DNA of 53,093 nucleotides, filler included, from Malassezia furfur (lineage: Eukaryota): assembly GCA_052055015.1 (NCBI GenBank). It is 2 parts of 2 records of this genome, joined end to end, with 100 filler letters (N's around TTAATTAATTAA, not from the genome) between each part and the next. Parts side by side here need not be neighbours in the genome. Positions count along the whole stretch, not along the records: positions 26,620 to 53,093 come from JBQJIT010000125.1; 1 more part is not named here. The stretch is one strand, 5' to 3'. Both the position numbers and the translations under genes were made by a program. How positions within the stretch are numbered: position 1 is the stretch's first letter; the number at the start of each line of letters is the position of its first letter. This document shows, piece by piece, positions 4,367 through 50,435 of the stretch. The notes below the pieces were generated by a model. The model did not search any database, was not told the DNA's origin, and saw only the letters and a list, made by a program, of their open reading frames with translations.

Positions 4367-5366
4367 CTACGATGCGAGTGTCTCTTGCAACCAGGCAGCG
4401 AACAGCTGCGCAACGTGCTGCTCCGGCGCCGCATGCGTCAGGCCCAGGTCCTGGAACTCAGACTTGCTCGCATACACCCGCACAAACTGTCGGCGCAGCG
4501 TCTGGAGCCGGGCCGGCGTCGGAAACGCGCGGCCGGCCGGCAGCGTGAGCGAGACGGGAGCCAGGCCCGCGACCGCCAGCTGCATCGTGCCCTGCGGCGC
4601 GTTCGCACGCTGCTCCTGCAGTGCGGCCACGACGCGCTGCGTCACGCCATCCAGCAGCTCGAGGCTGTTGTTCGACGTTGCATGTCGCTGCGCCGTGACC
4701 GCCTTGGGCGCTTGGACCTCGGCCTGAGTCACAGCATGCCACAGGTCGTCGAGTGGTGTTGGCGACACATCGATGCCCGCGACGCCCTGCGTGGCCGTCA
4801 CGACAAACAGCGGGCGGTGCCAGCGCGAGGCCGGTGTCGGCTCTTCGAAGCGTGCGATCAGCTCGTCGAGGCTGCGTCAGTGCATCCGACATACCCCGTC
4901 GGTGTGTACGCATCAGCGGCGCCTGAGGCAATTCGCTCAGCATTCCATGTACGGCACAGCTCCGGCTGACACGCCGTGTATACCTGGCGTCAGAGCCCTC
5001 CCACGTACTGTCGCACACCGGATACCCAACTCGCGCGCAGCACACCATAGCTCGTAGCGATACCCCTTGATGTTGAGCCCCGCACCGCCATCCGCAAGTA
5101 CAATTGACTTGTGATCGAGTGCACGCCGCACGGCACTGAGATATGCGGCACGCGCACTCTTTTCGGTGCGTTGCGCTGCATAAGCCTCGTGAGGGGTACG
5201 TACAGTCAAACACCTGCTTCTCAGTATGCACGTCGTCGTCGCTCACGCGCACCACGCGTCCGAGGCTTGGCGACTCGGCGAGACGCGCCTGGAACGCGCG
5301 CTGTATCTCAGTTGAACGCGTTGTTCGGCCAGAACACGGCAGGCCTGTGACGATCACCAGCGCCAT
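4367..5366 (-). CDS. KTI12: Kti12 Elongator-associated P-loop protein
   Basis: MALVIVTGLPCSGRTT P-loop, NIKGYRYELWCAARE, RFEEP, LQTLRRQFV. Introns 5176-5203 (28 nt), 4984-5008 (25 nt) and 4872-4894 (23 nt) join the frames. Confidence 0.9.
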
Positions 5367-12751: not shown

Positions 12752-13819
12752 CTACTCGTCTTCGTCGGGCACCTCGAATTCGTTCCCGTACGGCTTCGCC
12801 GTGAAGAACGTCGGGTCAAACCAGTTGACGCGGACGTAGCCGTCTTCTCCGCCGCTCGCATAGGCCTTGCCGGTCGGGTGGATGGCGAGCGTGTTGATGG
12901 GACCGAAGTGACCCGGAAGACGTGCGCATTCCTCCTCGAAGATTTTGTGCCAGAACCTGGACTCAAACTTGCCCTGACGTGCGCTGGTCGTCGTGACGCT
13001 CATGGCCTCCTGACCACCGCCGACAATCACGTAGGGCCGCGTCGGGTGCGCGATCGCCGAGTTCAGCGGTGTGTCAGTCATGTATGTCTTCTTCACGTCC
13101 AGGGTAAATGCGTCCAGGAGCTTGGACGACTTGTCCTTGCTGCTCGTAAGTAGGTATGTCTTGTCCCAGCCCAACTGGAGGTCCGTGATGGTTTCAGTGT
13201 GCGCGTCGGTGTGGTTCAGCTCGAGCTCGGCATCGATGCCCGTCTCCGGGTTCTCCGAGTCGTGACTGTACAGCGCCACCTTACCGCTCTCGTGGCCCGT
13301 AATGATATGCTGGTCGAGCGCGTCGAAAGAGGCGACAGTCGCCTTGGACCCCGAGAAGGTGATGGTGCGCATCGGCTCCGTGGACTGCTTGGTCCATGTC
13401 GCGGGGTCGCGGTTGATTTTAAAGACGCGGAGCGCACCGCGGTGGCCACTGCGCTCCTCGGTGATGCTGAGCACCTCAGAGCCGTCGCGGTTGAACTGTA
13501 CGCACTTGACGGCGGTGGGGAACTCCCACGTGTAGAGGCACTGTCCGGTCTGCACGTCCCAAAGACGCATTTGGTTGTCTGCGGAACCGGTGATGAGCAG
13601 TTTGGAGTTGTTGTCGACGTCGACAGACCACACGGTACCGTTGTGTCCGTTGTACGTGCCGAGGCGCTCGCCGTTGTGCGAGAACCACACGTTCACCACA
13701 TTATCCTTAGACACAGAGAACAGAAGATCACCCTCGCGGTTGAATTTGATCTGGTTCAGAGAACGGGTATGACCCGAGAGCACAATAGGACGCTAGGTCA
13801 GCCATGCCATACGCACCAT
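12752..13819 (-). CDS. TIF34: Translation initiation factor eIF3 subunit i (WD40)
   Basis: ATG, 24-nt intron 13793-13816, then RPIVLSGHTRSLNQIKFNREGDLLFS; GGGQEAMSVTTT; GHFGPINT; SGGEDGYVR. Confidence 0.95.
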
Positions 13820-28968: not shown

Positions 28969-31446
28969 CTATGACCTCCGCAGCTGATTGATTTCAGCGA
29001 CAATCTCCTCGGCCATCCGGCGGTCGTCCGCCTCAAAGTCGTAGCGCTTCGTATCGCGTTTCTTCTCGCGGACCACGACCAGCTTAAACAGGTTCGGCAT
29101 GCGCGCGTACTGCTCGCACTGCACCACCGCCGAGATGGGATACGACGTCGACCGCGCGTGGAACATGCGCTTTTCCGCAGGGCGGCTGCGTCAGCAGGGA
29201 CGACAACGTACATAATATGAATCCAGTCGCCGTCGATCGTGAGCACTCGCTCGTGACGGCCCACCGAAATGGGGTGCCGACGGCTGATGGTATAGGCCTG
29301 CACGGTGAGTGCGCACACATACCTTGTAGTTCGAGATCAGATCCATCGCCGTCTTGTACTTCGGCTGCTCGGGCACCTTGGACGACCGGCGCTGCAGCCC
29401 TGTGGCGTCGCTCGGCGCGTCAGGCAGCGACGTCCGCTCCACCAACACCAGGTCCGTGCGCTCGACAAACCCACGCACCGGCCGCTCGCCGGGGACGACC
29501 TCGTCCACGTCGCGGAAGAGCAGGGCGTACGTGCGTGCACTACCGAGCTGGCACTGCTCGCACACCGCATGGATGACGTCCTGCGCTGTCGCGTTCGGGG
29601 AAATACGCACGGTGGTCATACCCCGCGCATGGGGCACCACCATGATCTGGAGAACGACTCGGTTCGCCGACGCACCGGTGCCGAGCTCGTCGGCCGCAGG
29701 CGAAAGCTGGATGGGCTGCGCAGCAACCGGCATCGTGTCGGCCTGTGCCTGACGTGCGGCCTTTGCCGCAGGCGGCAACGCTTTGGGCATATACGGCCGC
29801 GCACACACCGCAAATTCGTTCTCGCCAAAGCGGCCCACGACCAAGGTGCGGTCGATCGCGGGGTAATCCTCGTCGACCAGCCCATCTTCCGTCATGTACA
29901 GAGCCCATGCCTCGGTCTCCAAGAACGCCTCCAGGTCCGTGTCGTCCGCGTCGGGGCGTGGCGGCGGCCTGCCATAGTGGTCCACAAAGCACGACAGGCC
30001 GTACCCAATCAGCTCCTCCATCGTCGCGTCTCGGCGCACACGCACGTCCAATGGTGGCACCGACGCGTCCGAGCCGGGGTGTGGAAAATAGAGCGTGACG
30101 GCGTAGCCGTTTGGATCACGCTCGCACACACCCGCGCGACGGTAGCGCGCCAAGATCATCTGGACGTGCGACTGCCCCGAGCTACTTTTTTGCAGCTTGG
30201 ACGTGAGCAGCGACTTGGTTTGCGGCGCAGCAATGCGTCCCCGACGGAATGCAAGTCCATCCTCGGTCTGCGGCGATGTGCCGAGAGCCGCTGTGCGGCG
30301 GTCGGTGCGCGGCGCGCCTTTGGACTCGTTGGCGCCGGCCGGCCCGGCGACGCGCGACTTGCGCCGCGCACGCGCTGTCCGTTTCGACCCAAACAGCTCG
30401 CGCTCCTCCTCAGGGGGCACAATGAATGAGCCGGGCAGGTAGGGACGCAGCGAGTCGCTCGCGGCCGTCCCGTCGCTCGTCGACGACAGGCTCGAGGGCG
30501 GGCGCGACGGCTCGCTGTCGAGCATCGCGGACGACTGCGACGACTCGGCGGGGAAGAGACCTGGGACGCTGTGCAGCTCCGAGGGAGAGATGTGCACGCT
30601 CGCCAGTGTGGCAGCCAGTCCTGCCTTGGCGTCCGAGTCGACCGACGACGCCAAATCGCTCTCCTCCGCGGCGCCTTGCAAGGGACGCAGCGGCGACTGC
30701 ATCGAGTGCATCACGCCCGGCGAAAGCCGCGTCATGGTCGTGCTTAGGAATGACGCGGCCGGATTGACCATCGTCTCGGCACTGTCGGCCTGCGTGCTCA
30801 GACGAGCCGACGCGTCCTGCAGCTGGATGGTCCGCGAGAGGTAGCCGTGTGCCTCGGCATTGGGGGTCTCGGTATTGAGCGACGCGCCGTTGGTATAGGT
30901 AGCGACACTGCCGACGCCCGAGCGCCGTGTCCCCGAGACGCGCATGCCCATGAGGCTTGACTGGCGCGGGCCATAGATGGTCTGTGTGTAATTGAGCCGT
31001 CGCCGCGGCCCAGGCTGTGCGTCTGCGAAATCGTCCGGTGTGCCCTGCAATGCCCCTGGGACAAAGTTGCTCGACTTCTTCGGGAGCAGCGCCTCGTCCT
31101 CCTCGGCGAGTGGCCAGGGCTCGTGGGGAAAGTGCTGCTGGAAGAGCGCCTTGACCGCGTCCAGATTCACGGGGAGGACGGGCGACTCGGACAGCGATGC
31201 AGACGTTTCCTCTGTGTATGCCTCGTCATGGAACCGGAACGGCAATGCGCCCGCCGCATACTCGGACGCGCTCGGCGACATGGCCGACGAGCTGGGACTT
31301 GCGCGCCGAAGCTCCTCGGCGGCCGACTCGGCCAATACGCGCGCGACGACGGGGTCATCGCTCGCATGCAGGTAGTCCTGCCGTAGTCGCTGGATCGCCT
31401 CGCTGCGTCAGCACGTCACACACCTCCGGCTGCGGGCCAGCGCCAT
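28969..31446 (-). CDS. SIN1: TORC2 subunit Sin1/Avo1
   Basis: N-terminal QRLRQDYL, CRIM-like region (DATMEELIGYGL...EDGLVDEDYPAIDR), C-terminal PH region (HERVLTIDGDWIHI, KRYDFEA). Introns 31403-31423 (21 nt), 29298-29322, 29186-29211. Confidence 0.87.
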
Positions 31447-43558: not shown

Positions 43559-45051
43559 ATGACTCGGCGCGTGTTCGTGGGAGGCATCGTAACGTCCAAG
43601 AGCATTTCAGAGCTCCAGGTCATCGAGCATGGGATCCTAGGCGTGGATGCAAACGGCGTCATTGCCTTTATCGAGGACCTGGAGAAGCTCGCAACCGACG
43701 TTGCGGCTTATCTCAAGACGCACGGTTGGGAACAAGGCACCGAGGTCGTGCAGCTTGAAGATGGGTCGTTTGTGTGCCCTGGATTCATTGATACCCACAC
43801 GGTACGTGCCTCGCCCAGCTGACGCCATGTAGCACGCGCCGCAACTTGTGCGTTCACGAGGCTGACCTTGCAGGCAAACACCGGGCGCGGCATGCAGCTG
43901 CAGCTGCTCGACTGGCTCGAGGAGCTCACGTTCCCCGAAGAGTCCAAGTTCCAGGACGTGGAGTACGCCAAGGCAATGTACGCAAGTGCAGTCGATCGTT
44001 ACTTGCGGTCCGGCACGACGACGGCGTGCATCTATGCGACGTTGCACCTGGAGGGTAGGTGGTGCCTCACTAACGCAACCAGCTACCAAGGTGCTTGCCG
44101 ACATCTGCCATGCGCGCGGCTTCCGAGCGTTTGTCGGCCGGTGCCAAATGGACCGCAATTCGCCGGCCATCTGCGTGGAAGCCAGCGCGAGCGAGTCGTG
44201 TGAGCACACCGTGCAGTTGATCCACCACTGCCGGGAGCTCGCTGGGAAGGACGAAGCGCCGCTCGTACAGCCCATCCTGACCCCGCGCTTCGCCATTAGC
44301 TGCTCGTCGGAACTGCTCGCCGGCATTGGCGAGCTCGCCAAAGCGTACCCCGACAGTGCGTGGCCTACTGCTGACCCTAGTCCCTTTGCAGACGCACATT
44401 TGCGAGAACAAGCGCGAGATTGAGGCGACGCGCAACTTGTTCCCCGAGCGCAGCTCGTACGCGGACGTGTACGACCACTATGGGCTGCTCAACGAGCGCA
44501 TGATCTTGGCGCATGCCATTCATTTGAGCGACGCCGAGATCCGGCTGCTGCTCGAGCGCCGATGTGGGCTGTCGCATTGCCCAACGAGCAACATGAACCT
44601 GAACAGCGGTCTCTTCCGCCTGATGGACCTCGCGAAGCGTGGCATTAAGATCGGGCTCGGCTCCGACATCTCGGGCGGGTACGCCGTGGGCCTGTTGCCA
44701 GTGCTGCGCGAGGCCAGCACCATCACGCGCGTGCTGGCCATGCAGGATCCCGCGCAGGCGCCGGCGCCGCTCGAGGCGCTCTACTTCTTTGCGACACTCG
44801 GCGGCGCACAGGTGTGTGGGCTGGAGAAGCGGGTGGGCATGTTGGCGCCCGGCTACGAGTTCGACGCGCTGGTCGTCCGCACCTCCGCCCGTGCGGGCGA
44901 CGCGCCCGTGAACCCCAACCTGTTTGTGCGCGAGCAAGAACCGCTGGCGTCCCTGTTTGAAAAGTGGCTGTTCTGCGGCGACGACCGCAACATTGCCACG
45001 GTGTATGTCCGCGGCCGCCCGGTGTGTGGTGCGGTGCCAGGACGTGCGTGA
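43559..45051 (+). CDS. GUD1: Guanine deaminase
   Basis: PGFIDTHTHAPQ assembled across a 15-nt exon, LLDWLEELTFPEE, TPRFAISC, QTHICEN, LAHAIHL, HCPTSN, GLGSD, GDDRNI. Introns 43802-43832, 43848-43873, 44055-44082, 44356-44380. Confidence 0.92.
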
Positions 45052-45092: not shown

Positions 45093-47118
45093 CTATGACA
45101 CTTGCTGCGTTCGCAGCGGCATGGCGAGTGCGTCGAGGTCGCCGACACTGACCTCGTGCACATGGCCGCGGAACACGTAGCGTACATACAACGACTTCTT
45201 TTCGCCGATGCATGGGTCGAAGAACCCGACGAGTTTGGACTGGGTCAGTGTGTGTACCTACCTTGGACCGCCCCGCAGGGATCACCAGCTGGCTCTGGCT
45301 CACGAGCATCTGCAGCGGCACACGCACGTCCCACCACAGCGGCTGGTTCTCGGAAAAGACGCCGTGCGGCACATCGATGGGCCGCGCCACGAGCGCTAGC
45401 AGCTCCGTCTTGTTCGTGCACGCCTCCGCAGCGACCGGCGTCGGCGGCGGGAAGTGGTGCTTGGCGCCGTAGCACGCCTGCACAATCACCACGCCCTGCC
45501 GGTCAAACTCGATTTCGGCACGCTTGAGCGCCTGGCCACGCAACAGCTCGCGCGTCTGTTCCGCCGAGACGCGGCGCTGCTCGATCGCGCCGAGATTGTC
45601 GCGGCGCACCTTGGCGACACGCTCGGCATGGATGCGCTGCCGCCGGGGTACAAAGTAGAGGTAGTGCGACAGGGCGATGACCGCCGCCGGCACCATCGTC
45701 GCGGCCGCCACCAGGTCCGCACGGAACGTGGGCGAGAGCGTGATGGGCAGCACGATACGCTGGCCCAGGCGCGACACGCGCACCTTGAACTGCACGCCCG
45801 AGACCAGGCCGCAGTCCATGCCGAGCATCACGCGGATGTTTTCCGTGACGCGGCGCTCGCCGTTGGTGAACACGGAGAAGCCCGTGCCCGTGCCGAGCAC
45901 GATGCCGCTGCGGATCAGGATGCCGCCGAGGATGCGCATGCTCCAGTCGTAGCCGACCGACAAATCCACCTCGGAGAGCGTCGTCTGGAACGTCCAGCCG
46001 GGCTGGTTCGGCTCCTGCTTCGTGACACCGACGATGAGCGCGCCCGTGTCCTGCAGCACGGCCTCGCCGCCGCGGCCAGCGCCCCAGGGGCCGATGGTAT
46101 ATGCGCCCGTCTTGTACGACGAGAAGCCAGTGAGCGTCGACGTGCTCGACAGGCGCTGGCCCCACGTCATCGTCACCGACGGCGGTGCCGCCAGCGTCTG
46201 GGCCACCACCGCATACGTAAAGAACAGGTTGTCGTCCACCGTGTACTGCCCCTTGGACGTGAGGATGTGCGGCTTGAGCAGCGTCGCACTCAGCTCGGAA
46301 AAGAAGTGCGGGCTCCAGTGCGTCTTGACCGTGCCGATCAAGTTGCCGCCGCCCATCCCGCCGCGGCTCATCATCTGGCCCGAGAGCGACACGGCCGTGG
46401 TGTTGGAGGTCTGCATCTCGAAGCTGTGCTTGCCGACGAGCTGCGTGCAGTTCACTCGGTCCAGCCGCTCGCCGAGCGTCAGCGGCCGCACCGGGCGCGG
46501 GCGCAGCGGCGTCACGACCGGCGCAGGCGTCGGCGCGAACAGCGAGCTCGCATCGATCGACGCCACAAACTCGCCGCGCGACTTGACCAGCCCCTCGGCG
46601 TCCGCGGCTTGCCGCAGCCGCGCCTGCCGCTCCATCTCGGCGCGCAAATCGGCAGGAGTTTGGCCAGGCACCGTGAGCGACCAGCTCGACTGCAGGCCCG
46701 CCTCGCCAAAGTGGTCATATACGGCCCGCTGCTCGGTATTGCTCAGCACCTCGTACGCTTTTTGGATGTCGCGGAAGGCGTCTTCGGCCATCGCCTTGTG
46801 CCGCGGGTCCGGATGTTTGTCGGGGTGGAAGGCGACTGCGGTTAGCACACGCGGTACGCACCCGCCAGTGTTTTGTACGCATCGCGGATCTGCTCCTCGG
46901 TCGCATCCTTGTCGACATTCAGCAGTGAGTAGTAACTCCGCGCCTCGGCATGCGTGTCTTCGGGCTCGTCGGTGTGCGCGTCACGGAACGGCGTGCCGCC
47001 AAACAGCGGCTCCTCGTCCGATGGTGGTGCGGCGCGTGCAGTGTCTGTGTGAGCATGAAGAAGCACAGCACGGGGACGTACTGTGCAGACGAAGGTCCGC
47101 GTCCATACGAGCCGACAT
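45093..47118 (-). CDS. DnaJ-domain protein, DNAJC11-like (DUF3395 C-terminus)
   Basis: YYSLLNV...FHPDK J-domain; C-terminal DVRVPLQMLV...GFFDPCIGEKKSLYVRY. Introns 47045-47081, 46836-46861, 45240-45261. Confidence 0.85.
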
Positions 47119-47428
47119 CCCCGGATGGTCCGTGGCGGTCGCAGCCGTAGGTGTGGAGGTGAGCAAAATTGGGCCAAATTGGAGAGGCTCACCGCAAGAT
47201 GCCTGCGGCCAGGTCGGCAGCCCACCTGGCTGTCCACCACACCGCGCCGCGCCGCACACAGACCCGCTCCGCAAGGCCTACTACAGTCCCCATAGATGCC
47301 CTATGTACCCCTTCCGCCACCGCGACGCGTCCGCCGCGCAGACCGCACACACACCGCGCTCGAGCCATTGGGCACATTTGCAATTAATCCAAGCATCGTC
47401 GCCGCCGTCGTCTCCACCGCACTCCAAC

Positions 47429-47829
47429 ATGTCTGAAGCGTCGCCGGCGCAGACCGCTCACGAGCCCACCGAGCAGGCATCGGGCGCGGGCACCGACATC
47501 AAGTCGGGCAGCCCGAACGACTTCCTCAAGGGTACGTACCGCTGCGCACCCTGGGCGGCGTGGCATCGGCACGGATCGTGTACTAACCCACGCAGGTGTG
47601 ACTGGGAAACGGGTCGCTGTGCGGCTCAACTCGGGCATCGACTACCTCGGGACGCTGTCGTGCCTGGACGGCTACATGAACATTGCCATGGAGGAGACGA
47701 CCGAGCACGTGGACGGCCAGCTCAAGAACCATCTCGGGGACGCCTTTATCCGCGGCAACAACGGTACGTCGACGCGCGCGCGCCGCGGTGCTAACGCCAG
47801 TGCTCTACATCACCGCCCTCGAGGGGTAG
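47429..47829 (+). CDS. LSM6: U6 snRNA-associated Sm-like protein Lsm6
   Basis: SPNDFLKGVTGKRVAVRLNSGIDYLGTLSCLDGYMNIAMEET...GDAFIRGNNVLYI; introns 47532-47595 and 47764-47800. Confidence 0.9.
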
Positions 47830-47921
47830 GCACATAGCCACGATCTTTGTGACATAGAGCTGCACACACGTACGGCGCGTCATCCGGCGCGCCGCTGCAT
47901 GCGCCCATGACAACGCGCGCG

Positions 47922-47939
47922 CACACACACACACACACA
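47922..47939. repeat. (CA)9 microsatellite
   Basis: Directly visible between the LSM6 and QCR6 3' ends. Confidence 0.9.
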
Positions 47940-47990
47940 TTTCTACGGTTCATGCAGTTGAGCAGATCGTTCGGGGTAACGCAGACGCCA

Positions 47991-48705
47991 CTATGCCAGC
48001 TTGGGGAACAGCTTCCTGTGGTTAGACCCGGCTTTGGCCGTCGTACGTACGGCGCAGTGCACTCGAGCGCACAGTGAGCAATGTGGACTGATGGTTAGCA
48101 TGCGCGGCGCGGTCTTTCGACATACAGCTGCGGTTAGTACGACGCGCACGGTGGGCGACCTACAATTCTTCCGTGCAGTCCTCGTGAGGGAATTGGACGT
48201 CGCCCTTGGTGACGCGCTCCTGGCACTCCTCAAAGTGGTGACGAGCGCTGGCGCAGGGGGCCGACTTTTCGCACGCTGCGCGTTAGCATCGCGTGCCAAT
48301 GTGCGCCGCGTACCTTCGTAAATCTGGGGCATGATCTAATCCATGCAAGCCAAGCGCGAGCAGCACGCGGCGCGCGAGGTCAGTATCCGGGGCTGCATCA
48401 TGGCGCAGTACGTACGTCCTCCGGCTCCTGTCGGTTAGTACGGGTGCGGTCGCGGCGTTACGTACGTCCTCGTCCTCGTCGTCCTCTTCCTCTTCCTCTT
48501 CCTCCTCGTCTTCGCCCGCCTCGTCGTCACCCGACTTCTCCTCGTCGTCGCCGTCGTCCTGGAGTCAGCATTTCGGCGCGCGCGTCGTGCGTACCTCGGC
48601 GTGCGCCACGGGGAAGAGCGAGGCGAACCAGCTCGTCGGAGCCGACTCCTCAACGGTCGTAGCAGAGCTCGTGCCAAAGTTCGTCAGGGCAGACAGCAGG
48701 GACAT
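47991..48705 (-). CDS. QCR6: Cytochrome b-c1 complex subunit 6 (hinge protein), 8 exons
   Basis: Exons 48705-48595, 48558-48466, 48427-48416, 48335-48314, 48275-48164, 48127-48126, 48087-48051, 48015-47991 total 414 nt (137 aa): acidic tract, then EPEDIMPQIYEACEKSAPCASARHHFEECQERV...DCTEEFFHIAHCALECTAPKLFPKLA. Confidence 0.88.
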
Positions 48706-48949: not shown

Positions 48950-49559
48950 ATGCCTGGTGTAGGTACCGCGAAGTGACACGCATGCTGACCATCAGGATCC
49001 TACTGCTACTGCCAAGGGTAACGAGATCCCCGACACCCTCATGGGCTACATCCCCTGGACCCCGGAGCTCGACTCGGGTGAGGTGTGTGGTATCCCCACC
49101 ACCTTCAAGACCCGCGACGAGTGGAAGGGCAAGAAGGTTGTGATTGTCTCGATCCCGGGTGCCTACACCCCCATCTGCCACCAGCAGCACATCCCCCCGC
49201 TTGTGAAGCGTGTGGATGAGCTCAAGGCCAAGGGTGTCGACGCCGTGTACGTCATTGCGTCGAACGACCCCTTCGTCATGGGTATGTACTGCTCTGTCAT
49301 TTCTTTATGCTAACCGACAGCTGCCTGGGGCAACTTCAACAACGCCAAGGACAAGGTCGTCTTTGCCACCGACATTGACCTGGCCTTCTCCAAGGCTCTC
49401 GGCGCGACGATCGACCTGAGCGCCAAGCACTTTGGTGAGCGCACGGCCCGCTACGCTCTGATCATTGACGACAACAAGATTGTCGACTTTGCTTCGGACG
49501 AGGGCGACACTGGCAAGCTCCAGAACGCGTCGATCGACACGATCCTCACCAAGGTCTAA
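48950..49559 (+). CDS. Mala f 2: Prx5/Ahp1-type peroxiredoxin, allergen Mala f 2
   Basis: MPGDPTATAKGNEIPDTLMGYIPWTPELDSGEVCGIP...PGAYTPICHQQH...DTILTKV; introns 48959-48995 and 49282-49320. Allergen identity is from recall. Confidence 0.9.
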
Positions 49560-49899: not shown

Positions 49900-50435
49900 A
49901 TGGTATGTGGCGCGCGGCGCTCACACAGTCTGCGGAAATTGGCTCGACGATCCCCAACGCTACGTTTGCATACGTGCCGTACAGCCCCGAGCTCGAGGAC
50001 CACAAAGTGTGTGGCATGCCGACGAGCTTCCAGAGCCACGAGCGCTGGAAGGGCAAGAAGGTGGTGATTGTCGCGGTGCCCGGTGCGTTCACGCCGACGT
50101 GCACCGCGAACCATGTGCCGCCGTACGTGGAAAAGATCCAGGAGCTCAAGAGCAAGGGCGTCGACGAGGTCGTGGTGATCTCGGCGAACGACCCGTTCGT
50201 GCTGAGCGCATGGGGCATCACCGAGCACGCCAAGGACAACCTGACGTTTGCGCAGGACGTCAACTGCGAGTTCTCCAAGCACTTTAACGCGACGCTGGAC
50301 CTGTCGTCGAAGGGCATGGGCCTGCGCACCGCGCGCTACGCGCTGATCGCGAACGACCTCAAGGTCGAGTACTTTGGCATCGACGAGGGCGAGCCGAAGC
50401 AGTCGTCGGCCGCGACGGTGCTGAGCAAGCTGTAG
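49900..50435 (+). CDS. Mala f 3: Peroxisomal Prx5/Ahp1-type peroxiredoxin, allergen Mala f 3
   Basis: ATG, 26-nt intron 49903-49928, then SAEIGSTIPNATFAYVPYSPELEDHKVCGMP...PGAFTPTCTANH...VLSKL (PTS1). Allergen identity is from recall. Confidence 0.9.

What the first reader, a model, noticed from the sequence alone, without database searches (positions are those of the whole stretch)
48088..48163. A 2-nucleotide exon in QCR6
Minus strand reads GAA GAA TT|gtaggt...tactaaccgcag|CT|gtatgt...gctaaccatcag|TC CAC. Two complete introns (36 and 38 nt), each with its own donor, branch point and acceptor, flank only 'CT' (48126-48127). Including it gives the conserved hinge-protein motif EEFFH; skipping it shifts the frame. 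Such an exon probably needs strictly ordered splicing and would be missed by most gene finders.
Basis: partly seen in the sequence, partly recalled or inferred. Interest (0 to 1): 0.8.

Follow-up and report, generated by a model that had tools for sequence, protein, structure and literature searches.

The report
Two-nucleotide exon in Malassezia QCR6
A respiratory-chain gene of a Malassezia yeast has a real exon only two bases long between two tiny introns; the layout is kept across the genus and public gene models miss it, but such mini-exons are already known in other fungi.

Summary
On the minus strand, a 36-nt intron (48163-48128) and a 38-nt intron (48125-48088), each with its own donor, branch site and acceptor, flank only 'CT' (48127-48126). 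The host is an 8-exon, 137-aa cytochrome bc1 hinge-protein (QCR6) gene (Pfam UCR_hinge, E 7e-10).

Under strict splice-signal rules, including CT is the only in-frame, stop-free solution in the window. All 12 of 12 related metagenome loci (M. sympodialis-, M. globosa- and M. restricta-like) keep 'intron | YT | intron' at this spot. Their intron cores have diverged, and a CT/TT variant is synonymous.

Eight of 8 uninterrupted database ORFs from two of these lineages read EEFFH. One maps without mismatch onto genomic loci, and only through the 2-nt exon. All 5 NCBI-named Malassezia models that reach the site are wrong after it.

RNA from this organism could not be examined, and splicing order is untested. 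Two-nucleotide exons are already in print for Coprinopsis (57 exons), so this is a new member of a known kind.

The parts
48595..48705 (-). QCR6 exon 1 (ATG at 48705; 111 nt)
   Evidence: Gene model. The N-terminus matches M. furfur-named P0001 and P0008.
48559..48594 (-). intron 1 (36 nt, GTACGC...CTGAC...CAG)
48466..48558 (-). exon 2 (93 nt, acidic stretch)
48428..48465 (-). intron 2 (38 nt)
48416..48427 (-). exon 3, a 12-nt micro-exon (EPED)
   Evidence: A separate 12-nt exon also appears in the M. globosa-like loci L003 and L005.
48336..48415 (-). intron 3 (80 nt; branch-like CTGAC far from the acceptor)
   Evidence: The acceptor was chosen because it keeps the P-x-IYE motif seen in orthologues.
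48314..48335 (-). exon 4 (22 nt)
48276..48313 (-). intron 4 (38 nt)
48164..48275 (-). exon 5 (112 nt), core of the hinge domain; ends ...GAAGAATT in phase 2
   Evidence: Pfam UCR_hinge E 7.2e-10
48128..48163 (-). intron A (36 nt): GTAGGT donor, TACTAAC branch site (branch A at 48134), CAG acceptor
48126..48127 (-). the 2-nt exon 'CT': third base of the first Phe codon and first base of the second
   Evidence: Conserved as YT in 12 of 12 related loci.
48088..48125 (-). intron B (38 nt): GTATGT donor, GCTAAC branch site (branch A at 48095), CAG acceptor
48051..48087 (-). exon 7 (37 nt), starts TCCAC; encodes the H-x-A-H-C...E-C part of the hinge motif
48016..48050 (-). intron 7 (35 nt)
47991..48015 (-). 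exon 8 (25 nt including stop TAG at 47993-47991)

Best explanation
The window carries the nuclear gene for the acidic hinge subunit of mitochondrial complex III (QCR6) of a Malassezia furfur-like yeast. The gene is split into 8 exons by 7 very short U2-type introns. The sixth exon is a constitutive 2-nt exon, 'CT'. It supplies the last base of one Phe codon and the first base of the next, giving the family motif EEFFH.

Inferred mechanism: each flanking intron is recognised on its own by intron definition, since each has a full donor, branch site and acceptor. The branch point of intron A lies only 9 nt from the donor of intron B, and the acceptor AG of A lies within the stretch that U1 would contact at B. 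Two spliceosomes therefore cannot sit there together. The introns must be removed one after the other, with the first ligation product serving as substrate for the second reaction (resplicing at a fresh junction).

What is shown: the anatomy, its necessity for the frame, its conservation, and the FF-containing spliced product in relatives. What is inferred: sequential removal. The order is unknown.
For: - **Anatomy and frame:**. The 8-exon model gives 414 nt and 137 aa.
- **Family:** exon 5 matches Pfam UCR_hinge at E 7.2e-10, 39.3 bits against a cut-off of 27.2.
- **Uniqueness in the window:** with strict signals (GT[AG]NG[TC] donor, CT[AGC]A[CT] 4-20 nt before AG) the 36|2|38 solution is the only in-frame, stop-free one.
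- **Conservation:** 12 of 12 confirmed metagenome loci have intron A (29-39 nt) | YT | intron B (41-68 nt) between ...GA[AG]GA[AG]TT and TCCA[CT]. Ten loci have CT. L003 and L005 have TT, which still gives Phe-Phe.
- **Divergence pattern:** between lineages the exons are 66-86% identical and the intron cores 28-62% (leaving out the close pair L006-L007). The total interruption is 72-109 nt (including the window's 76), with no multiple-of-3 constraint.
- **Lineage labels:** the neighbouring peroxiredoxin ORF is 100% M. sympodialis (L001, L002), 100% and 99.5% M. globosa (L003, L005), and 98-99% M. restricta (L006, L007, L009, L011, L012). The same neighbour lies beside QCR6 in the window.
- **Spliced product in relatives:** 8 of 8 uninterrupted ORFs (P0006, P0049-P0051, P0007, P0052, P0053, P0010) read EEFFHLAHC. 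P0049 maps with 0 mismatches on L003 and L005 through GT-AG exons of 108, 87, 12, 22, 109, 2, 37 and 22 nt.
- **No other route:** every chain allowing GT-AG, GC-AG or AT-AC introns of 10-300 nt that reproduces the stretch through EEFFHLAHCALEC uses the same 2-nt exon. Counts were 3 of 3, 3 of 3, 4 of 4, 7 of 7 and 4 of 4 chains.
- **Motif in named orthologues:** EEFFH is present in Ustilaginomycotina (P0009, P0011-P0013, P0054) and ascomycetes (P0026, P0027, P0029, P0039).
- **Intron size:** 36-38 nt is normal here. Window cassettes are 24-74 nt, and the curated M. sympodialis annotation has a mean intron of 30 bp (PMC5389616 Table 2, passage seen).
Against:
- The RNA origin of the uninterrupted ORFs is my inference. 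It rests on their being uninterrupted while the matching genomic loci have 6-7 introns, and on 0 of 12 loci being intronless. The tools do not state the library type.
- P0007 found no full chain on L009 or L012. The search stopped at residues 68 and 51, in the acidic region, and I did not examine this further. It needed up to 5 mismatches on L006.
- In the M. restricta-like loci other in-frame solutions exist: a 5-nt exon through a CAG|CAG tandem acceptor, in-frame retention of intron A, and a 101-nt single intron. Minor isoforms are therefore possible there.
- Sequential splicing and its order are inferred from spacing alone. The fold of the region shows no structure that could set an order (z +2.04; 199 of 200 shuffles fold at least as well).
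Confidence: 0.9

Rival explanations
1. The 2-nt exon is real but only partly included. Skipping it (one 76-nt intron) or retaining a flanking intron gives frame-shifted or truncated transcripts, acting as splicing noise or as a regulatory, unproductive isoform.
For: The outer donor and acceptor form a consensus-like 76-nt intron (one search lists 20-96 among consensus-like introns). In the M. restricta-like loci, retention of intron A is in-frame and stop-free, and a tandem CAG|CAG acceptor exists. The M. furfur CBS9595 model P0001 removes intron A and keeps B, though this may only be a gene-finder choice.
Against: 8 of 8 uninterrupted ORFs in relatives carry FF and none shows a skipped form. 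The skipped form loses the conserved H-x-A-H-C...APKLF end.
Confidence: 0.15
2. There is a single intron with non-canonical borders, shifted by one base, giving EEFH with one Phe, and no micro-exon.
For: A 77-nt removal would keep the frame. This is arithmetic.
Against: It needs TG-AG or GT-GT borders. Orthologues have two residues between EE and H. The relatives' uninterrupted ORFs have FF and can only be reproduced through the 2-nt exon. The inner AG|YT|GT is conserved in 12 of 12 loci while the intron cores diverge.
Confidence: 0.02
3. The gene is a pseudogene, or the dinucleotide layout is an assembly or sequencing artefact.
For: None found. All public models look broken here.
Against: The same layout appears in 12 independent contigs of three other lineages. 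Exons are conserved and the one variant is synonymous. The scans returned one QCR6 locus per lineage and no intact second copy.
Confidence: 0.01

Closest known systems
[quoted passage not shown]
   Same: It is a basidiomycete. The exons are constitutive-looking, 3 nt or less, flanked by two spliceosomal introns, and their omission breaks the frame. The paper counts 57 exons of 2 nt in 50 genes, 13 of 1 nt and 27 of 3 nt.
   Different: The subphylum and gene differ. A search of the paper's 5 held supplementary files found no mention of the hinge protein or QCR6. Here the flanking introns are only 36 and 38 nt, so the whole two-intron unit is 76 nt, and it lies in an intron-poor lineage.
Single-nucleotide exons: Arabidopsis APC11 (PMC4674806, passages read), plant APC11/VPS55 (PMC8831610, passages read), Fusarium CYP621A (PMC12940212, abstract and Discussion read)
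   Same: Each is an ultra-short exon inside a conserved motif. Each is needed for phase compatibility, conserved among orthologues and missed by annotation. The Arabidopsis authors propose intron definition plus stepwise (recursive-like) removal, which is the mechanism I infer here.
   Different: Those exons are 1 nt, not 2, and those cases have direct RT-PCR or RNA-seq proof. Here the RNA evidence is indirect and from relatives.
Stwintrons (spliceosomal twin introns) of fungi (search listing and abstracts only)
   Same: Two U2-type splicing reactions in succession within one short interval of a fungal gene.
   Different: In a stwintron the internal intron interrupts a splice signal of the external one and nothing stays in the mRNA. 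Here both introns are complete and side by side, and 2 nt stay in the mRNA.
Zero-nucleotide recursive splice sites (Drosophila Ubx and others; known to me only from the reference list and discussion of PMC4674806, and from recall)
   Same: An acceptor lies directly next to a donor, and a junction that has just been made is spliced again.
   Different: Those sites subdivide very long introns and leave no nucleotides behind. Here the introns are tiny and 2 nt are retained.

Membership tests
Cytochrome bc1 complex hinge protein (QCR6 / UQCRH; Pfam UCR_hinge PF02320) | Match to the UCR_hinge profile above the gathering score | tested here: met
   Exon 5 alone scores E 7.2e-10, 39.3 bits against a cut-off of 27.2.
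Cytochrome bc1 complex hinge protein (QCR6 / UQCRH; Pfam UCR_hinge PF02320) | Long acidic N-terminal stretch and a C-terminal EEFFH...HC...AP[KR]LF end shared with named QCR6 proteins | tested here: met
   Model translation compared with named orthologues P0009, P0011-P0013, P0039 and P0054.
Cytochrome bc1 complex hinge protein (QCR6 / UQCRH; Pfam UCR_hinge PF02320) | Is a subunit of complex III | not testable with these tools
   Follows only from homology.
Ultra-short (3 nt or less) internal exon between two spliceosomal introns | Acceptor directly upstream and donor directly downstream, each intron with its own branch site and normal length | tested here: met
   Intron sizes are typical of the window and of Malassezia (mean 30 bp; PMC5389616).
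Ultra-short (3 nt or less) internal exon between two spliceosomal introns | Inclusion is required for the reading frame and a conserved motif | tested here: met
   It is the only strict-signal in-frame solution in the window.
Ultra-short (3 nt or less) internal exon between two spliceosomal introns | Conserved position in orthologous genes while the introns diverge | tested here: met
   12 of 12 loci from three other lineages.
Ultra-short (3 nt or less) internal exon between two spliceosomal introns | Junctions seen in mature RNA | tested here: inconclusive
   Not testable for this organism. In relatives the uninterrupted ORFs P0049 and P0007 can only be derived through the 2-nt exon, but their RNA origin is inferred.
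Stwintron | An internal intron interrupts the donor, branch site or acceptor of an external intron, and both leave no exon sequence | tested here: not met
   Both introns carry complete signals and CT remains in the product.
Zero-nt recursive splice site | AG|GT juxtaposed, with no nucleotide retained | tested here: not met
   AG|CT|GT: two nucleotides are retained.

The most novel reading that the evidence does not exclude
The QCR6 twin-intron unit (72-109 nt in all) may be older than the genus Malassezia and present in other Ustilaginomycotina-like fungi. It may also be one of the most compact natural substrates that forces two spliceosomes to act strictly one after the other. If so, a fixed order, or a skipped frame-shifted by-product, could act as a kinetic brake or quality gate on expression of a complex III subunit.

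The lead for the wider spread comes from read-through ORFs of unnamed lineages. Four of them (P0022, P0025, P0015, P0035), plus the positive control P0020, each have exactly one site whose codons allow YAG|YT|GTRNGY. P0015 also has a non-Malassezia N-terminus. The chance of a site per peptide is 9-27%, so this is weak.
Probability: 0.15. Interest if true: 0.6.

Novelty: new member of a known kind. Interest (0 to 1): 0.42.

Why it matters
**Annotation.** The C-terminus of an essential respiratory-chain subunit is wrong in all 5 NCBI-named Malassezia gene models that reach this site: furfur CBS9595, brasiliensis, japonica, psittaci and pachydermatis. A sixth model, furfur GLX27, stops earlier. 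No named model from M. sympodialis, M. globosa or M. restricta was among the 48 hits. Gene finders and spliced aligners that cannot place a 2-nt exon will keep repeating this error.

**Biology.** The case adds a genus-wide, conserved 2-nt exon in a genome with very short introns. The upstream branch point and the downstream donor are 9 nt apart, which makes a handy natural substrate for asking how small an exon intron-defined splicing can tolerate, and in which order neighbouring introns are removed.

It does not open a new category. Exons of 1-2 nt are already documented in plants, Fusarium and Coprinopsis.

Tried and rejected
- **RNA evidence for this organism:** No whole genome is held, so a genome-wide search for other tandem-intron micro-exons was impossible. 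In the 53-kb window this is the only tandem pair.
- **Genome-contig scan:** it gave one locus, L013, a Flavobacteriales MAG with a 19-residue match and no such layout. I dropped it as chance.
- **RNA structure that might order the two reactions:** none found. The z-score is +2.04.
- **Origin of intron B as a duplicate of intron A:** rejected. A and B are 71% identical, no more than the other short introns of the gene are to each other or to A and B (63-79%).
- **Loose enumeration of splice solutions:** allowing any GT or GC donor gives many in-frame chains. I replaced it with the strict-signal version.
- **First exhaustive chain script:** Extra chains differ only at the last codon and arise because zero-length exons were allowed.
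- **Earlier findings of this scan:** three look-ups returned nothing relevant.
- **Literature searches:**
  - 'Malassezia' + 'microexon': 1 paper, irrelevant.
  - 'Malassezia' + 'QCR6': 1 paper, irrelevant by its title and abstract start; not opened.
  - Phrases for 2-nt, 2-bp and two-nucleotide exons: nothing on fungi.
  - The M. sympodialis proteogenomics paper's main text has no 'nt exon', 'short exon' or 'shortest'. Its supplements were not looked at and may list the gene.
- **Labelling the L006-L012 lineage:** the exact look-up of a neighbouring ORF of L012 failed. tblastn with the named M. restricta protein settled it.

Full report
**1. Observation**

Read on the minus strand, the sequence is exactly as described. 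Exon sequence ends ...GAAGAATT at 48164. A 36-nt interval (48163-48128) begins GTAGGT, contains TACTAAC and ends CAG. Then come the two bases CT (48127-48126). A 38-nt interval (48125-48088) begins GTATGT, contains GCTAAC and ends CAG. The sequence then continues TCCAC from 48087.

A donor/branch/acceptor cassette pattern occurs 22 times on both strands of the window. In 200 first-order Markov random sequences the mean was 4.58 with sd 2.17 and maximum 13. Two cassettes 15 nt or less apart occur once in the window (this pair) and never in the 200 random sequences. The cassettes found are 24-74 nt long, so 36 and 38 nt are ordinary for this genome. The curated M. sympodialis annotation has a mean intron of 30 bp over 5350 introns in 4493 genes (PMC5389616, Table 2, passage seen).

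**2. The gene**

Joining exons by coordinates gives an 8-exon, 414-nt reading frame of 137 aa. The exons are 48705-48595, 48558-48466, 48427-48416 (12 nt), 48335-48314, 48275-48164, 48127-48126 (2 nt), 48087-48051 and 48015-47991.

Exon 5 alone matches Pfam UCR_hinge (PF02320) at E 7.2e-10, above the curated cut-off. The product has the acidic N-terminal stretch and the C-terminal EEFFH...HC...APKLF end of named QCR6 proteins from Sporisorium, Ustilago, Testicularia, Acaromyces, Mycosarcoma maydis, Candida, Sporothrix, Magnaporthiopsis and Saccharomyces. Coemansia has EEFLH.

The closest named proteins are from Malassezia furfur. P0001 is 95% identical over exon 5, and P0008 shares the N-terminus. 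The window therefore comes from an M. furfur-like yeast.

**3. Is the dinucleotide needed?**

- Skipping CT gives EEF followed by a shifted frame.
- Keeping intron A gives a stop.
- Keeping intron B shifts the frame.

With strict signals (donor GT[AG]NG[TC]; a CT[AGC]A[CT] box 4-20 nt before the AG), the 36|2|38 solution is the only in-frame, stop-free way from EDC... to H[LI]AHC in the window. With any GT or GC donor allowed there are 6 solutions (1 single-intron and 5 two-intron). The other 5 use weak donors and delete or alter conserved residues.

**4. Relatives**

A scan of metagenome contigs with an alignment of exon 5 found 102 pattern matches, of which 12 were confirmed by tblastn. All 12 of 12 have the same layout after ...GA[AG]GA[AG]TT: intron A (29-39 nt), a dinucleotide, intron B (41-68 nt), then TCCA[CT].

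The dinucleotide is CT in 10 loci and TT in L003 and L005. TT gives TTT TTC, still Phe-Phe. The one variable base is thus a synonymous third position.

Between lineages exon 5 and exon 7 are 66-86% identical, while the intron cores are 28-62% identical (leaving out the close pair L006-L007). The total interruption ranges from 72 to 109 nt, including the window's 76, with no multiple-of-three constraint.

The neighbouring peroxiredoxin ORF labels the lineages:

| Loci | Label | Identity to named protein |
|---|---|---|
| L001, L002 | M. sympodialis-like | 100% |
| L003, L005 | M. globosa-like | 100% and 99.5% |
| L006, L007, L009, L011, L012 | M. restricta-like | 98-99% |

L004, L008 and L010 are placed with these groups by their QCR6 sequence. 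A peroxiredoxin gene lies beside QCR6 in the window too (49005-49556, +), so the loci are syntenic.

The one hit in prokaryote genome contigs (L013) is a chance match and was dropped.

**5. Spliced product**

Eight of 8 uninterrupted database ORFs of the M. globosa-like and M. restricta-like lineages read EEFFHLAHC. They are P0006 and P0049-P0051 from Logan contigs of about 0.9-1.1 kb, and P0007, P0052, P0053 and P0010 from the source labelled merc.

- P0049 maps with 0 mismatches over all 133 residues onto L003 and L005 through GT-AG exons of 108, 87, 12, 22, 109, 2, 37 and 22 nt.
- P0006 maps with 2 or fewer mismatches.
- P0007 maps from its third residue, where the chain search was started, on L007 with 2 or fewer mismatches and on L006 with 5 or fewer.
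- P0007 found no full chain on L009 and L012. The search stopped at residues 68 and 51, in the acidic region, and I did not pursue this.

Every chain allowing GT-AG, GC-AG or AT-AC introns of 10-300 nt that reproduces the stretch through EEFFHLAHCALEC uses the same exon-5 end, the same 2-nt exon and the same exon-7 start. Counts were 3 of 3 (P0049 on L003), 3 of 3 (P0049 on L005), 4 of 4 (P0007 on L007), 7 of 7 (P0007 on L006) and 4 of 4 (P0052 on L007).

That these ORFs come from RNA is my inference. They are uninterrupted, whereas the matching genomic loci carry 6-7 introns, and none of the 12 loci is an intronless copy.

**6. Public models**

All 5 NCBI-named Malassezia models that reach the site go wrong right after DC[TV]EE.

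| Model | Species | Error |
|---|---|---|
| P0001 | M. furfur CBS9595 | removes intron A, keeps B, runs out of frame |
| P0002 | M. brasiliensis | jumps from exon 5 to exon 8 |
| P0005 | M. pachydermatis | jumps from exon 5 to exon 8 |
| P0003 | M. japonica | stops a few residues after the site (EELAVI) |
| P0004 | M. psittaci | reads into intron A and stops |

A sixth model, P0008 (M. furfur GLX27), ends after exon 3. No named model of M. sympodialis, M. globosa or M. restricta was among the 48 hits, although their neighbouring genes are in the collection.

**7. Mechanism (inferred)**

Each intron has all its own signals and a normal length, so each can be recognised by intron definition. The branch adenosine of intron A (48134) is 9 nt from the first base of intron B's donor (48125). 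In the relatives, branch A of intron A lies 6-8 nt before the acceptor, so the spacing there is 9-11 nt. The AG of intron A also lies within the positions that U1 contacts at a donor; this last point is established knowledge and was not tested here.

Two spliceosomes therefore cannot plausibly assemble side by side. The introns must be removed one after the other, the second reaction using a junction that was just made. The authors of the Arabidopsis 1-nt exon propose the same (PMC4674806, Discussion passages).

Either order is chemically possible. Nothing in the sequence fixes it, and the region has no unusual RNA structure (z +2.04; 199 of 200 shuffles fold at least as well). 'Strictly ordered' therefore remains untested.

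**8. Comparison with what is known**

- The Coprinopsis cinerea long-read annotation reports 57 exons of 2 nt in 50 genes, 13 of 1 nt and 27 of 3 nt (PMC12230235, passage read). Its 5 held supplementary files do not mention the hinge protein.
- One-nucleotide exons are described for Arabidopsis APC11 (PMC4674806), plant APC11 and VPS55 (PMC8831610, passages) and Fusarium CYP621A (PMC12940212, abstract and Discussion).
- The case is not a stwintron, because both introns are complete and side by side and 2 nt stay in the mRNA. I saw only the stwintron listing and abstracts.
- It is not a zero-nt recursive splice site either.
- I found nothing in print on this exon or on QCR6 in Malassezia (searches; for the M. 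sympodialis annotation paper, main text only).

**9. Verdict**

I give about 0.9 that CT is a true, mainly constitutive exon in this organism. The finding is a new member of a known kind. It is genus-wide, sits in an essential respiratory gene, is embedded in a two-intron unit of only 76 nt, and is wrongly annotated in public genomes.

Interest is moderate (0.42). It is useful for annotation and as a compact splicing substrate, but not surprising in kind. The boldest reading still open is that the twin intron predates Malassezia and imposes ordered or gated splicing. That rests only on weak back-translation hints, and I give it 0.15.

Noticed in passing
window 48416-48427 (-): The same gene has a second micro-exon of 12 nt (exon 3). 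It is also a separate 12-nt exon in the M. globosa-like loci L003 and L005. In the M. restricta-like loci L006 and L007 the chain shows a single 108-nt exon there, so intron 2 is present or absent depending on lineage.
   Followed up: partly
window 47991-48705 (-): The gene has 7 introns in a 414-nt coding sequence, about 17 per kb. The clade is reported to have a median of 0.14 introns per kb (Ustilaginomycotina, PMC8476143 table). In Ustilago/Mycosarcoma maydis the gene seems to keep only the first intron: P0017 reads through from an intron-like start and is then identical to P0054 to the end. This is inference only.
   Followed up: partly
window 48336-48415 (-): Intron 3 is 80 nt and its only consensus-like branch box (CTGAC) lies 46 nt before the acceptor, against 6-13 nt in the twin introns A and B of all 13 sequences. 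The M. furfur CBS9595 model P0001 lacks the four residues IMPQ there, which would fit an acceptor 12 nt further on, and so loses the conserved P-x-IYE context.
   Followed up: partly
L006-L012, intron A acceptor: The M. restricta-like loci have a tandem CAG|CAG acceptor that would give a 5-nt exon (EEFSFH). Their 39-nt intron A is in-frame and stop-free if retained. Minor isoforms are possible there.
   Followed up: no
window 49005-49556 (+) and 49908-50432 (+): Two tandem peroxiredoxin genes lie upstream of QCR6. The second matches Pfam Redoxin at E 5.8e-33. By tblastn the first is 74-77% identical to the M. globosa and M. restricta proteins and 54% to the M. sympodialis 'allergen'; the second is 53-58% identical to all three. 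The first is interrupted: a stop appears in the straight translation, and an intron-like cassette lies at 49247-49320.
   Followed up: partly
window 47388-47837 (+): An LSM-domain (Sm-like) gene converges on the 3' end of QCR6 (Pfam LSM, E 1.2e-14). It has two intron-like cassettes at 47532-47595 and 47764-47800. A short (GT)n/(GC)n run lies between the two genes near 47915-47940.
   Followed up: partly
window 13793-13816 (-), 4984-5008 (-), 29186-29211 (-), 46836-46861 (-), 44356-44380 (+): Intron-like cassettes of only 24-26 nt with full donor, branch and acceptor signals. I did not check whether they are real introns.
   Followed up: no
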